Assembly: GCF_009914755.1 (NCBI RefSeq) | Contig: NC_060935.1 | Length of the DNA: 64,000 nt | Direction: 5' to 3' (one strand) | From: the human T2T-CHM13v2.0 reference genome, Homo sapiens | Shown here: piece by piece, positions 2,316 through 53,669 of the stretch | Numbering within the stretch: position 1 is the first letter of the stretch | Layout of the letters: every line of letters begins with the position of its first letter | The notes under the pieces: model-generated | What the model was told of the DNA's origin: nothing | Seen by the model: the letters and a program-made list of their open reading frames with translations, nothing else | The model's database searches: none | Translations under genes and position numbers: made by a program

Positions 2316-2870
2316 AACTAGAAATACCATTTGACCCAGCCATCCCATTACTGTGTATATACCCAAAGTATTATAAATCATGCTGCTATAAAGACACATG
2401 CACACATATGTTTATTGCAGCACTACTCACAATAGCAAAGACTTGGAACCAACCCAAATGTCTGACAATGATAGACTGGATTAAGAAAATGTGGCACATA
2501 TACACCGTGGAATACTATGCAGCCATAAAAAATGATGAGTGCATGTCCTTTGTAGGGACATGGATGAAGCTGGAAACCATCATTCTCAGCAAACTATCGC
2601 AAGGACAAAAAACCAAACACCGCATGTTCTCACTCATAGGTGGGAATTGAACAATGTGAACACATGGACACAGGAAGGGGAACATCACACACTGGGGACT
2701 GTTGTGGGGTGGAGGTAGGGGGGAGGGATAGCATTAGGAGATATACCTAATGCTAAATGAGGAGTTAATGGGTGCAGCACACCAACATGGCACATGTATA
2801 CATATGTAACTAACCTGCACGTTGTGCACATGTACCCTAAAACTTAAAGTATAATAATAATAAAAAAAAG
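2316..2870 (+). mobile_element. 5'-truncated L1PA (L1PA3/4-like): ORF2 C-terminus, 3'UTR and poly-A
   Basis: Translates as LEIPFDPAIPLL...HRMFSLIGGN*; G-rich 3'UTR, ...ACTTAAAGTATAATAATAATAAAAAAAA; no convincing TSD. Confidence 0.93.
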
Positions 2871-7687: not shown

Positions 7688-9574
<1,887 letters not shown>

Positions 9575-21404: not shown

Positions 21405-24610
<3,206 letters not shown>

Positions 24611-38229: not shown

Positions 38230-38779
38230 TATATATATATATACACACACATACGTATACACGTGCCATGGTGCTTTGCTGCACCCATTAGCCTACCATC
38301 TACATTAGGTATTTCTCCTAATGCTATCCCTCCCCTAGCCCCCAACCTCCCCCACAGGCCCTGGTGTGTGATGTTCCCCTCCCCGTGTTCATGTGTTCTC
38401 ATTGTTCAACTCTCACTTATGAGTGAGAACCTGGAGCAATTGGTTTTCTGTTCCCGTGTTAGTTTGCTGAGAATGATGGTTTCCAGCTTCATCCATGTCC
38501 CTGCAAAGGACATGAACTCATCCTTTTTCATGGCTGCATAGTATTCCATGGTGTATATGTGCTACATTTTCTTAATCCGGTCTATCATTGATGGACATTT
38601 GGGTTGGTTCCAAGTCTTTGCTATTGGGAACAATGCTGCAATAAACATATGTGTGCATGGGTCTTTACAGTAGAATGATTTATAATCCTTTGGGTATATA
38701 CCCAGTAATGGGATTGCTGGGTCAAATGGCATTCCTGGTTCTAGATCTTTGAGGAATTGCCACACTCTCTTCCACAATG
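38197..38779 (-). mobile_element. L1PA (L1PA7/8-like) 3' fragment, tail end replaced by a (TA)n(CA)n microsatellite
   Basis: Minus-strand FLKDLEPGMPFDPAIPLLGIYPKDYKSFY; 3'UTR runs into dinucleotide repeats at 38197-38260. Confidence 0.9.
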
Positions 38780-39381
38780 GAGGCCAATAGTAAATGTTCT
38801 CATAATTATGGAATTAAAGTAATGTTAATTTTAATTTTAAAGTAAATTTAATTCCTCTGAAGGGTAATCTTTTCCCTTTTACTCCATCCTAGTAAAGTAT
38901 AAGTCCCCTAAATTATTTTTCTTAAAAAAAAAATCAAACATTATTCCTCTTAAAATAAAAAGCCAGAGTTACGTAAGTTTAGGAAGTATTAAAAATTATC
39001 GGGGATTGGCCAAGATGGCCGAATAGGAACAGCTCCGGTCTACAGCTCCCAGCGTTAGCGACGCAGAAGACGGGTGATTTCTGCATTTCCATCTGAGCTT
39101 TGAAGAGAGCAGTGGTTCTCCCAGCACGCAGCGGGAGATCTGAGAACAGGCAGACTGCCTCCTCAAGTGGGTCCCTGACCCCTGACCCCCGAGCAGCCTA
39201 ACTGGGAGGCACCCCCCAGCAGGGGTGGACTGACACCTCACACAGCCGGGTACTCCAACAGACCTGCAGCTGAGGGTCCTGTCTGTTAGAAGGAAAACTA
39301 ACAAACAGAAAGGACATCCACACCAAAAACCCATCTGTACATCACCATCATCAAAGACCAAAAGTAGATAAAACCACAAAG

Positions 39382-40398
39382 ATGGGGAAAAAACAGAACA
39401 GAAAAACTGGAAACTCTAAAAAGCAGATCGCCTCTCCTCCTCCAAAGGAACGCAGTTCCTCACCAGCAATGGAACAAAGCTGGAGGGAGCATGACTTTGA
39501 CGAGCTGAGAGAAGAAGGCTTCAGACGATCAAATTACTCTGAGCTATGGGAGGACATTCAAACCAAAGGCAAAGAAGTTGAAAACTTTGAAAAAAATTTA
39601 GAAGAATGTATAACTAGAATAACCAACACAGAGAAGTGCTTAAAGGAGCTGATGGAGCTGAAAACCAAGGCTTGAGAACTACGTGAAGAATGCAGAAGCC
39701 TCAGGAGCCAATGCGATCAACTGGAAGAAAGGGTATCAGCAATGGAAGATGAAATGAATGAAATGAAGCAAGAAGGGAAGTTTAGAGAAAAAAGAATAAA
39801 AAGAAACGAGCAAAGCCTCCAAGAAATATGAGACTATGTGAAAAGACCAAATCTACGTCTGATTGGTGTACCTGAAAGTGACGGGGAGAATCGAACCAAG
39901 TTGGAAAACACTCTGCAGGATATTATGCAGGAGAACTTCCCCAATCTAGCAAGGCAGGCCAACATTCAGATTCAGGAAATACAGAGAACGCCACAAAGAT
40001 ACTCCTCGAGAAGAGCAACTCCAAGAAACATAATTGTCAGATTCACCAAAGTTGAAATGAAGGAAAAAATGTTAAGGGCAGCTAGAGAGAAAGGTCAGGT
40101 TACCCTCAAAGGGAAGCCCATCAGACTAACAGCGGATCTCTCAGCAGAAACTCTACAAGCCAGAAGAAAGTGGGGGACAATATTCAACATTTTTAAAGAA
40201 AAGAATTTTCAACCCAGAATTTCATATCCAGCCAAACTAAGCTTCAAAAGTGAAGGAAAAATAAAATACTTTACAGACAGGCAAATGCTGAGAGATTTTG
40301 TTACCACCAGGCCTGCCCTAAAAGAGCTCCTGAAGGAAGCACTAAACATGGAAAGGCACAACCGGTACCAGCTGCTGCAAAATCATGCCAAAATGTAA
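39382..40398 (+). pseudogene. L1 ORF1p, inactivated
   Basis: MGKKQNRKTGNSK...LLQNHAKM*, with in-frame TGA at 39673-39675 and 39829-39831. Confidence 0.95.
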
Positions 40399-40446
40399 AG
40401 ACCATCGAGACTACGAAGAAACTGCATCAACTAATGAGCAAAATAA

Positions 40447-44290
<3,844 letters not shown>

Positions 44291-46760
44291 ACAATGAGAA
44301 CACATGGACACAGGAAGGGGAATATCACACTCTGGGGACTGTTGTGGGGTGGGGGGAGGGGGGAGGAATAGCATTGGGAGATATACCTAATGCTAGATGA
44401 CGAGTTAGTGGGTGCAGCGCAGCAGCATGGCACATGTATACGTATGTAACTAACCTGCACATTGTGCACATGTACCCTAAAACTTGAAGTATAATAATAA
44501 TAATTTAAAAAAAAAGTGTAGGGATTGAGTAGTGGAAAAAAAAACAAAAAAAATTATCAAGCAGGTGTCTTTGCTATAGGTATTTTCAGAAACTTGAGTT
44601 TTCTAATGTAATTTCCTTACAAATATCAAAGGGTACAAAAATAGCAGAAGCCATTTTAAACTATAAGCACTTCATCTGCCTTGTGGATTAACCAATATGC
44701 TTAATTCCTTCTGGAAAACATTACGAACAATGCCCTCAGTTTGCTGTAAAAATGTGATGAATGACTTCTTTTAAGCTACTTGCTTCAACTACCTCCAGCT
44801 GTGTATTTAAAAAATTCACATTTTTTATCTGTTTAGGTCAATAGTAAGTGCTCTAATTATGTAATTAAATTAATTAAATAGTACTTTTTAAACACCATGA
44901 AATAAATGTGCAAATTTTTAAGGGATATTATTTTACACTAATTAAGTAGGACATCTTGATAAAAGTTATTGGCAAAAAATAAGTTGATACTGATTTAGTC
45001 TTAAGGAAGAAATCTAAAATGCAGAGTAAAGATAATAGTAAAAATTTAGACTTCTTCAGAGATTTTTTCACAATTAAAAAACATTCTCACATCCTTCACA
45101 AAAAATTGAAACTAGAAAAAATGATTGACACTGCAATCAGTGGACTCATACTCAAATAAAAGACTTTAGCTTTACAGCAAAAGACTGGCAAATAAATGCA
45201 TATTTGTATGCTTTATATTTAAGTAAAATTCTAAAGATACATATACATTGTTTTAAATTTTTTTTTGCCTTAAGCACATTTTTACTTACAAAGCTAAACA
45301 CAAGTCCTAATAAGATTGGTTTTTAAAGCTTCTATTCTATTCGAGTAGTTTGTTCTCTACTCTAGTAATTTTCTTATTCTATTTAATTATGTATTTTTTT
45401 AGATTATTGTTTCTCATTGCTAACCAGCTTTGGCTGAAAAATGTTCCAAAATACTTGCTTTTGTGGCTTTTCTTCATTTCCATTAGTAATAGAGTTAGAT
45501 TGACAGTTCAAAGCAACTTAAAATTATTTTAAGCCACTTTTGTCTGAGAATTCCCATGTAAAGCAGGATAAATACCATATATAATGAATTAAACAGGTAG
45601 GTGGAAAAGTTGGTTTCTGATGAACCAACACAACCCCCAGAAGATGGGCATTAAAAATGTTCTTCAAATGTCTTTCGACAATAGGGCAGAGAAAGAATGA
45701 AGATAATTTTCAAAGTCACACAAAGGACATTTTGTTTCCAAAGATCACTTTAGAAACAAGAAATCAGGATTGAGTCTTGCCATATTCCCTCTGTCTACAC
45801 CATTTTAGTATTCAGATTAGAGAATGTCTAGAACTTACTGGAACCTAAATGACACCAGTCTTTTAAGCTTTAGTTTTACAATACAGAGATAAGACATTGG
45901 GAAAATAAAATAGGATTACAGAGACCAGTACTCTGAATAGCTAAACATGACATAAAATGTTATTATATTTACTTACTTTTTGTCTTGTTTTCATTTTGTC
46001 TGACTATATAAACAATAAAACTCTCTTAGTTTCTAATAGATTAAAAATATCTTTAATGTTGAGATACTGTGTCAATTTAGAGCTCTTAAATCAGACCCTC
46101 CTATTAATTTAAAGTTCCCTTGTTTTCAGTTAAATCAAGGGAGGCAAAATATTCACAAAGCCTCCTTTGTAAGTTCCATTGATGCTCCCATCTTTTTCTC
46201 ACTCTCCTAGTGTCTTCATTTTATCTTTACCACAGATTGAATTTCATAGTCAGCCAACTGAAACACTGCTTTGCATTTGTTTCAACCTCCTTGATTCTAT
46301 CTCTAGGTTCATTCTATTCTGTTGTTAAAATCACAGTCCTGGGTAAATGCAATTCCTTACCTACTCAGAACTGCATCAGTATAGCTAGATGTGGCTGGAT
46401 AAATGTGTATGACCACTCAGGTTAAAATCATTACCACAAATTTCAAGCCCAACCTTTATTGCTTGACAGTAAAACTACATTTCTTCAGTCCACTCATTTA
46501 CTTACTTGTAAGAAGATTATTTTATGCATTCCTTTTTCTCTTCAAACCCCATTCTCATTTGAGTTTCTACTTCATTAAGGAAATTGAAGTACTTGAGAAG
46601 AATTTCTACAAACTTCCACTACTGAAACTACTGACATACTAGCATTTGTGTTTATACACTTGCCCTTTTTTCCTATGTATACACATAGATTATGCATGCT
46701 CCTATTTAAAGCCAATTCTCCAAATTTCCACCATATAACACCCTTTCATCTATTTAAGTA

Positions 46761-51197: not shown

Positions 51198-52037
51198 TTT
51201 TTTTTTTTATTATTATACTTTAAGTTGTAGGATACATCTGCACAATGTGCAGGTTTGTTACAAATGTATACATGTGCCATGTTGGTGTGCTGCACCCATT
51301 AACTTGTCATTTACAATACGTATATCTCCTAATGCTATCCATACCCCCTCCCCCCACCCCATGACAGGCCCCAGTGTGTGTTGTCCCATCCTAAGTCCAA
51401 GTGTTCTCATTGTTCAATTCCCATCTATGAGTGAGAACATGCGGTGTTTGGTTTTCTGTCCTTGTGATAGTTTGCTCAGAATGATGGTTTCCAGCTTCAT
51501 CCATGTCCCTACAAAGGACATGAACTCATCATTTTTTATGGCCGCATAGTATTCCATGGTGTATATGTGCCACATTTTCTTAATCCAGTCTATCATTGAT
51601 GGACATTAGGGTTGGTTCCAAGTCTTTGCTATTGTGAATAGTGCCGCAATAAACATACGTGTGCATGTGTCTTTATAGCAGCATGATTTATAATCCTTTG
51701 GGTATATACCCAGTAATGGGATGGCTGGGTCAAATGGTATTTCTAGTTCTAGATCCCTGAGGAATCGCCACATTGACTTCCACAATGGTTGAACTAGTTT
51801 ACAGTCCCACCAACAGTGTAAAATCGTTCCTATTTCTCCACATCCTCTCCAGCACCTGTTGTTTCCTGACTTTTAAATGATCGCCATTCTAACTGGTGTG
51901 AGATGGTATCTCATTGTGGTTTTGATTTGCATTTCTCTGATGGCCAGTGATGATGAACATTTTTTCATATGTCTTTTGGCTGCATAAATGTCTTCTTTTG
52001 AGAAGTATCTGTTCATATCCTTCGCCCACTTTTTGAT
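51198..52037 (-). mobile_element. 5'-truncated L1PA (L1PA4/5-like)
   Basis: Reverse L1 3'UTR and ORF2 C-terminus (MIDWIKKMWHIYTMEYY...); T-runs at both ends, right one followed by AA (EN site). Confidence 0.94.
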
Positions 52038-53669
52038 TTTTTTTTTTTTTTAAATGAACTACTGTCATCACCTTCCTCATTCTGCTGTACCTCCCTGCAT
52101 TAACTGATGAGGGCATTTTTCCCCCTCATTCAGCTGTTACCTTTTTCTATTCTCTTTTCTCTTCTATTCCCTAATTTCTTCTGTTATCTCTTTTCCTCCT
52201 TTTTAAACTAATCTCCTTGTATCCTCTTTAACTTTCTTTTCTTATCTTTTTCCTACACTTCCTCTCCACACTTATTTCTGGGAAGCTTATATACTCCTGC
52301 AATTTGAATATTGCTGTTATGTTGACAGTGATAAAATAGACATATCTATCACAAAACTCTCTCCTGGCTGCAGGCCCCCATTTCCTACTGTCAAAGATAC
52401 AGCTCCGCTGTGCTCCAGGCTGGAATTCACTTTCCCAAATACCTTCCCTGTAACCTCACTACTTATTGCACCACGCTGTCCTATGAGCAGTGGTAAAAGT
52501 AAGCACGATGGATTCATATACATCGAGCTTCTGATCCTGGCTCAACCACTTGACTGCTGTGCAACTTCAAGAATAATTTCAAACCTATTTGAGATTTTTA
52601 TCTTATGCAAAATAACTTGATAATCCTTACCTCATAATTTTGTCATGATGATTATGATGACACATAAAAAACTGAGTTATTCTATCCTTAGGGGTTCATT
52701 ATAATGGATTAAACATAATCCCACATGCGGTGGGTTCCTTAGGATGCTTCTTTATCTCTTTAGGGATTCTAGGGGAATTTGGTACCTGATTTTCCTATTA
52801 TATTTGGTTTTGAGATCCTACTTTCAGTGAATGAGAGCAAATAATAGACTTATTTTGGTAGTAAGTAAAAAATATGGCCACAATTTTTTTGCAGTAACTT
52901 TCATTAACAGATGGGCTTCATTTCCTTAGCCTTTGAATTTGGGGTGGCTCTGTGACTCTACTTTGACCAATAGAATATGACACAGTGACACAGTGCGATT
53001 TCTGAGCCTAAAGCTCAAGAGGTCTTGCAGCTTCCACCACTGCTGTCTCAGAACACTGAAACTTACTAAAGGATAATTTTCTTTTCTGTGAAGAGAGATA
53101 CCAAAAGTACTGTCCTCATTAAGATTTTTTTAAGGATTACATGAGATGGTACAGGTCAAAGGTTCAGCACAGAGTAAGTATTTGGTAAACGTAATCTATT
53201 TTCCTCTATAGTTTCCTCATTATTATAAAAAACAACATTATTTTAATTGTAAAACTCTCTCCAAGCCATAGTGAATTCCAGGTCACTCTTCATATTGTAT
53301 ATACTCTCCCCTCCTTGCCATTGTGCATTATTACCTCCTTCTATAATGTCTTTCTTCACCCTGAAACCAAATTTTATTCATTGTGTTCGTTCGTACCCAT
53401 TCCCTAAGGACCAATTTATGAATTATCTTCATGCATTCTTCTTTTAGCCTTCCTTCCCCAAACTAAATCCATCTCTCCCTTTTTCCCAGCTGCACACCCA
53501 CAACACCTTGTATGACTCTCCACTCTCATATTTACTACATCAGTGTAAATTCGTGTTCATTTTTGTGTGTCCAGGAAAGACTGATATTTTGGGGAGCAGG
53601 CATCATACAAATATTTCTTTATATTATCATTATTGTCATGATTATGGCCACAATTTATTCTGGGTTTCC

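What the first reader, a model, noticed from the sequence alone, without database searches (positions are those of the whole stretch)
44491..44558. 20-nt 3' transduction barcode on the spliced L1
Seen: after the L1 end (…GAAGTATAATAATAATAATTT plus an A9 tract) come 20 non-L1 bases, GTGTAGGGATTGAGTAGTGG (44516-44535), then a second A tract, and only then the TSD AAAAATTATC matching 38991-39000. The L1 end has no perfect AATAAA. Known: L1 transcripts that read past their weak poly(A) signal carry donor-flank sequence. Inference: the 20-mer tags the source locus, so the unspliced parent of this SpIRE, and any siblings, may be identifiable.
Basis: partly seen in the sequence, partly recalled or inferred. 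Interest (0 to 1): 0.72.

Follow-up and report, generated by a model that had tools for sequence, protein, structure and literature searches.

The report
L1 tail tag, parent lost
A 20-base tag in the tail of an old, dead human LINE-1 copy on chromosome 11 matches exactly one other place, on chromosome 2, where no LINE-1 now sits; it is likely a short read-through capture from a parent element that has since been lost, an ordinary process seen here at a copy whose published entry lists no such capture.

Summary
Observation confirmed: A9 (44507-44515), 20 non-L1 bases (44516-44535), A9-C-A3, then a 10-bp TSD. The L1 is the published SpIRE97/622-85 (Larson 2018; scored PA3, 'Transduction: No'). 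In the whole assembly the 20-mer has one other exact copy, chr2:145,788,243 (+), extending to 26 nt; the reversed control has none. The chr2 site is native and old (part of a local duplication, 86% identical, colinear) so the flow was chr2 to chr11. But no L1 lies there, nor any young same-strand L1 within 179 kb upstream, and no sibling carries the tag. The tag starts right after a TT|AA step and is followed by a GU-rich stretch; no poly(A) signal lies in the flank until +202 to +322. Best reading: a 'parentless' short 3' transduction from a donor L1 that sat at this chr2 point and is now absent, cleaved just past its own weak signal (or primed on the flank's A-run). The source locus is identifiable; the parent and siblings are not. 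Short and parentless transductions are known; 2 of 3 comparable L1 tails here also hold short tags. New member of a known kind; small correction to a published table.

The parts
38991..39000 (+). 5' target-site duplication (10 bp), after a TT|AAAAA endonuclease site
   Evidence: EN site TTTT/A and TSD 10 also in Larson S1 Table row
39001..44506 (+). Spliced L1 (SpIRE97/622-85), PA3/PA2 boundary; 381-nt 5'UTR with splice junction at 39097/39098; ORF1 (39382-40398) has stops at 39673 and 39829, ORF2 (from 40462) is in pieces
   Evidence: unspliced relatives align only from query position 96
44504..44509 (+). TTTAAA, the only poly(A)-signal-like hexamer at the L1 end (weak variant; status recalled)
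44507..44515 (+). First A tract (A9), likely the donor's own tail
   Evidence: donor origin inferred
44516..44535 (+). 20-nt tag identical to chr2:145,788,243-145,788,262 (+); 26-nt match with flanking As (44514-44539)
44536..44548 (+). Second A tract A9-C-A3; its C may echo the chr2 A4-C-A5 after the tag
   Evidence: templated origin of the C is inferred and weak
44549..44558 (+). 3' target-site duplication

Best explanation
The 20-mer is a copy of chr2:145,788,243-262, likely carried as a short 3' transduction from a full-length donor L1 that would have sat just before it and is absent from this genome. Steps: (1, shown) the tag lies inside the TSD between two A tracts and has one exact source; (2, shown) the source is old native chr2 DNA with no L1 and no scar; (3, inferred) a PA3/PA2-age L1 had inserted at the chr2 TT|AA step on some ancestral haplotype, so the tag is roughly its 3' TSD plus a few bases; (4, inferred) its transcript was spliced in the 5'UTR and ended about 26-32 nt past the L1's own weak hexamer, helped by the GU-rich flank, or was primed on the flank's A4-C-A5; (5, shown hallmarks, inferred process) this RNA was inserted at chr11 by target-primed reverse transcription; (6, inferred) the daughter became common while the donor allele was lost or never reached this haplotype.
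For: Unique exact hit, control 0. Direction: chr2 copy A has a paralogue 940 bp on, 86% over 174 bp, colinear; tag equals copy A 20/20 and copy B 16/20. Tag is in sense orientation to an A tract on both sides; match begins right after TT|AA (bottom strand ACTT/AA). 30 nt starting 10 nt after the tag are 23/30 G+T, top 1.3% of windows in 200 kb of chr2 (post hoc). No flank hexamer until +202 (TTTAAA), AATAAA at +322. 'Parentless' transductions are the usual state in dog assemblies (17 of 18, PMC7980453; 24 of 27, PMC13141329). Short tags between A runs also in 2 of 3 similar L1 tails with a good TSD.
Against: The donor itself is not seen anywhere: no L1 at or upstream of the site, no sibling. 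ACTT/AA fits the TTTT/A consensus at only 2 of 4 T positions. No AATAAA in the daughter; spacing of 26-32 nt is at the upper end of the 10-30 nt quoted in PMC13009371. The GU-rich test was chosen after seeing the sequence. Larson et al. scored this element 'Transduction: No'; the tail of their hg38 sequence could not be seen because long runs are cut.
Confidence: 0.8

Rival explanations
1. No donor ever sat on chr2: the reverse transcriptase first primed on the A-run of an unrelated chr2 RNA (or DNA end), copied about 20-26 nt and then switched to the L1 RNA's poly(A) tail, or the two RNAs were ligated.
For: Explains the missing donor and missing siblings directly. A-runs flank the match on both sides. 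Template switching and RNA ligation make L1 chimeras (passages of 10.1101/2025.02.02.635956).
Against: The chimeras in the passages read place the foreign RNA 5' of the L1, not in the tail. It does not predict the TT|AA start or the GU-rich stretch. Transcription of the chr2 + strand is untested.
Confidence: 0.11
2. Spliced transduction: a distant upstream L1 on chr2 read through and spliced from just after its tail to an acceptor at TTTTCTTAAG, giving a tiny last exon.
For: The chr2 match starts at a pyrimidine run ending in AG; this L1 RNA was evidently spliced once already.
Against: No young + strand L1 in chr2:145,609,501-145,819,499; best long match is 86% and on the - strand. The acceptor is short and ends AAG, a weak form (recalled).
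Confidence: 0.06
3. Chance: the tail decayed or gained untemplated bases and the chr2 match is coincidental.
For: Nine other places match at 2 mismatches, as many as the control's 14. Published table says no transduction.
Against: Exact 20-mer expected 0.005-0.008 times, plus 6 more matching bases; 26-mer at 3 mismatches has no other hit; a G-rich 20-mer is not A-tail decay.
Confidence: 0.02

Closest known systems
SpIRE97/622-85 (Larson et al. 2018, PMC5860796)
   Same: This very element: hg38 chr11:29416064, same flanks, TSD 10, EN site TTTT/A.
   Different: Their table lists 'Transduction: No'; here a 20-26 nt tag is mapped to chr2. Other SpIREs in that table do carry transductions (705, 186, 111, 39 bp; a possible 31 bp one).
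Partnered L1 3' transductions, short class (PMC13009371; PMC9311842, 7-997 nt)
   Same: L1 end, A tract, unique flank, new A tract, TSD; tag names the source locus.
   Different: Those are young L1HS events with a source L1 found; this is a roughly 3%-diverged copy with no source L1 present and no flank poly(A) signal.
'Parentless' LINE-1 3' transductions (dogs: PMC7980453, PMC13141329)
   Same: Transduced sequence maps to a site with no adjacent LINE-1.
   Different: In dogs the parent is thought still to segregate; here the age makes loss more likely than present-day polymorphism (inferred).
L1 chimeras by template switch or RNA ligation (10.1101/2025.02.02.635956)
   Same: Foreign sequence inside one TSD pair with an L1.
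   Different: Foreign part there is 5' of the L1 in the passages read; here it is in the tail.

Membership tests
L1 3' transduction (partnered) | Non-L1 sequence between the L1 3' end and the final A tract, inside the TSD | tested here: met
L1 3' transduction (partnered) | The extra sequence maps to another genomic locus in the same sense | tested here: met
L1 3' transduction (partnered) | Source locus is the original, not a copy of the daughter | tested here: met
   older local paralogue, colinear
L1 3' transduction (partnered) | Source L1 directly 5' of the mapped sequence | tested here: not met
   none in this assembly; hence filed under the parentless class, not as a traced parent-daughter pair
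L1 3' transduction (partnered) | Poly(A) signal 10-30 nt before the end of the transduction | tested here: inconclusive
   only TTTAAA at the L1 end, 26-32 nt before; GU-rich stretch after
Parentless 3' transduction | Mapped source has no adjacent L1 and no scar | tested here: met
Parentless 3' transduction | Filled allele exists or existed at the source point; chr11 empty site lacks the tag | not testable with these tools
   no other human or ape genome is held (header)
SpIRE97/622 | 5'UTR joined at positions 97/622, with TSD, EN site and A tail | tested here: met
   381-nt UTR, junction 39097/39098; relatives align from position 96; listed as clone 85
   segment absent (two older hits split at query 252-256; passage), but published label is PA3; no consensus library on hand

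The most novel reading that the evidence does not exclude
The tag marks the exact base where an extinct, once-active PA3/PA2 source L1 stood; the filled allele survives in another ape through incomplete lineage sorting (or as a rare human allele), and such 7-26 nt tail tags, overlooked in curated tables, form a genome-wide fossil map of lost source elements that would let one measure how often active L1 parents were purged while dead daughters fixed.
Probability: 0.15. Interest if true: 0.55.

Novelty: new member of a known kind. Interest (0 to 1): 0.3.

Why it matters
For this locus: it corrects one row of a published catalogue and gives a base-precise address (chr2:145,788,241-243) for a vanished parent L1, which can be checked in ape and pangenome assemblies. 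More widely it illustrates that tags near 20-26 nt are still uniquely mappable in a complete assembly, so old L1 tails can record lost donors. No effect on a gene is shown; the daughter is a dead copy in an intron-scale stretch of LINC02755 (hub annotation).

Tried and rejected
Siblings: 20-mer at up to 2 mismatches gave 11 places: 2 exact, 0 at one mismatch, 9 at two, none of the 9 after an L1 end or A tract, control 14. A 17-mer with five leading As gave one more hit, chr1:27,385,261, which is an Alu tail sharing only 12 non-A bases: rejected. 861 bp of chr2 flank found no copy elsewhere, 1 of 1 candidate scored, so no longer or orphan transduction seen. The daughter's exact 34-nt end is unique. 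The AAT-repeat-TTT end is shared by 52 places including this one and in the 10 read spans older and younger diagnostic states at 88-96% identity, so it is no lineage mark. Donor upstream on chr2: none in 210 kb. Decayed long TSD: rejected. Szak et al. 2003 on transduction families is not held; not read. Not in print: no paper holds the 20-mer or the four terms; supplements of Hoyt et al. (T2T transduction tables) and of PMC9311842 were not seen and could list this event. Precise dating by aligning full-length relatives was left undone; age rests on the 96-97% identities (38 of 28,255 candidates scored).

Full report
Observation. The window shows a 5.5-kb L1 at 39001-44506 (+), followed by A9, the 20-mer at 44516-44535, A9-C-A3 and a 10-bp repeat of 38991-39000. 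Ten bases is the longest exact TSD. There is no AATAAA at the L1 end; among 13 hexamers scanned (list recalled) only TTTAAA at 44504 is present. ORF1 has stops at 39673 and 39829 and ORF2 is in four pieces. The 5'UTR is 381 nt with a junction at 39097/39098, and unspliced relatives align only from position 96.

Identity of the element. The supplement of Larson et al. 2018 (PMC5860796; I saw the abstract, sections 7 and 8, passages and supplement rows) lists it as SpIRE(97/622)-85, PA3, hg38 chr11:29416064, EN site TTTT/A, TSD 10, 'Transduction: No'. The tail of their sequence is cut in the held text, so I could not see how they marked it. Their table accepts transductions for other SpIREs, down to 39 bp. 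The element lacks the 129-bp segment said to be lost between PA3 and PA2 (two older hits split at query 252-256), so it is at the PA3/PA2 boundary. Nearest scored relatives are 96-97% identical (38 of 28,255 candidates), which suggests an insertion older than the human-chimpanzee split (inference from recalled divergence rates).

Source of the tag. A whole-assembly search found 2 exact places: this one and chr2:145,788,243 (+); reversed control 0. The match extends to 26 nt, and the 26-mer at up to 3 mismatches still finds only these 2, control 0. At 2 mismatches the 20-mer has 9 further hits against 14 for the control, giving about 0.005-0.008 expected exact hits. The chr2 site is part of a local duplication: a second copy 940 bp on is 86% identical over 174 bp and colinear. 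The tag equals copy A and differs from copy B at 4 bases. So chr2 is the old native sequence, it bears no insertion scar, and the flow was chr2 to chr11.

No parent, no siblings. Blastn of the window L1 against chr2:145,609,501-145,819,499 found only old fragments; the longest is 80-86% identical and on the - strand. None of the nine 2-mismatch hits follows an L1 tail; the one extra 17-mer hit is an Alu tail; 861 bp of the chr2 flank has no copy elsewhere. These counts are lower bounds by the tool's own note.

Mechanism. On chr2 the match starts directly after TT|AA (bottom strand ACTT/AA), a passable but imperfect endonuclease site, and is followed by A4-C-A5 and a stretch that is 23/30 G+T (top 1.3% of 30-nt windows in 200 kb, a post hoc test). 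The first flank hexamers lie at +202 and +313 to +322. The simplest account is a donor L1 inserted at the TT|AA step whose transcript ended 26-32 nt past its own weak terminal hexamer, inside or just beyond its 3' TSD, or was primed on the flank A-run; it was spliced in the 5'UTR and retrotransposed once. The donor was probably unspliced, since SpIREs are mostly dead ends (abstract). The donor is inferred, not seen. Rivals are template switching or RNA ligation with an unrelated chr2 RNA (0.11), a spliced read-through from a distant L1 using the TTTTCTTAAG acceptor-like run (0.06; nothing within 179 kb), and chance (0.02).

How ordinary. Fifty-two places share this L1 end, this one included. 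Of 10 fetched, 6 had their 5' end in view; 3 of these gave a TSD of 11-17 bp, and 2 of the 3 hold a 7- or 11-nt tag between A runs; the other 3 gave only 7-bp matches or none. About a quarter of L1 insertions carry transductions and short ones are often missed (PMC13009371; abstract, introduction, section 9); germline ones range from 7 nt (PMC9311842, passages). Sources without an adjacent L1 are called parentless and are the majority in dog assemblies (PMC7980453 and PMC13141329, passages). The T2T repeat preprint lists 183 high-confidence L1 3' events and calls this an underestimate (passages); its tables were not seen. Text searches for the 20-mer and for lost PA3 sources found nothing.

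Verdict. Real, well supported and locally new (a missed micro-transduction with a unique, empty source site), but a new member of a known kind. Interest 0.3; the bolder reading, a surviving donor in an ape and a fossil map of lost sources, has probability about 0.15.

Noticed in passing
L001:1441-1614 and 2380-2553 (chr2:145,788,183 and 145,789,122): 174-bp local direct duplication, 86% identical, 940 bp apart; looks like the minus-strand 3' end of an L2 element (recalled, untested).
   Followed up: partly
L040 (chr1:224.186 Mb) and L044 (chr2:134.017 Mb): 5'-truncated L1s with 17- and 11-bp TSDs and short 11- and 7-nt tags between A runs; L040 also has a 5' inversion. Too short to map.
   Followed up: partly
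one search hits C15:68552580, C8:68789116, C1:121320804, C23:99985500, C10:45365692, C6:116192235: L1s that align across the 97/622 junction, so likely other SpIRE97/622 copies; not checked against the published list.
   Followed up: no
window 21405-24591 (+), 7696-9557 (-), 51204-52051 (-), 2316-2863 (+), 38249-38780 (-): Other, older 5'-truncated L1 pieces at 85-94% identity to the SpIRE; the last lies 220 bp before its 5' TSD.
   Followed up: no
L029, chr2:145,612,344-145,612,436: Very short L1 piece (about 90 bp) with a 5' inversion, 94-97% identical to the window L1.
   Followed up: no
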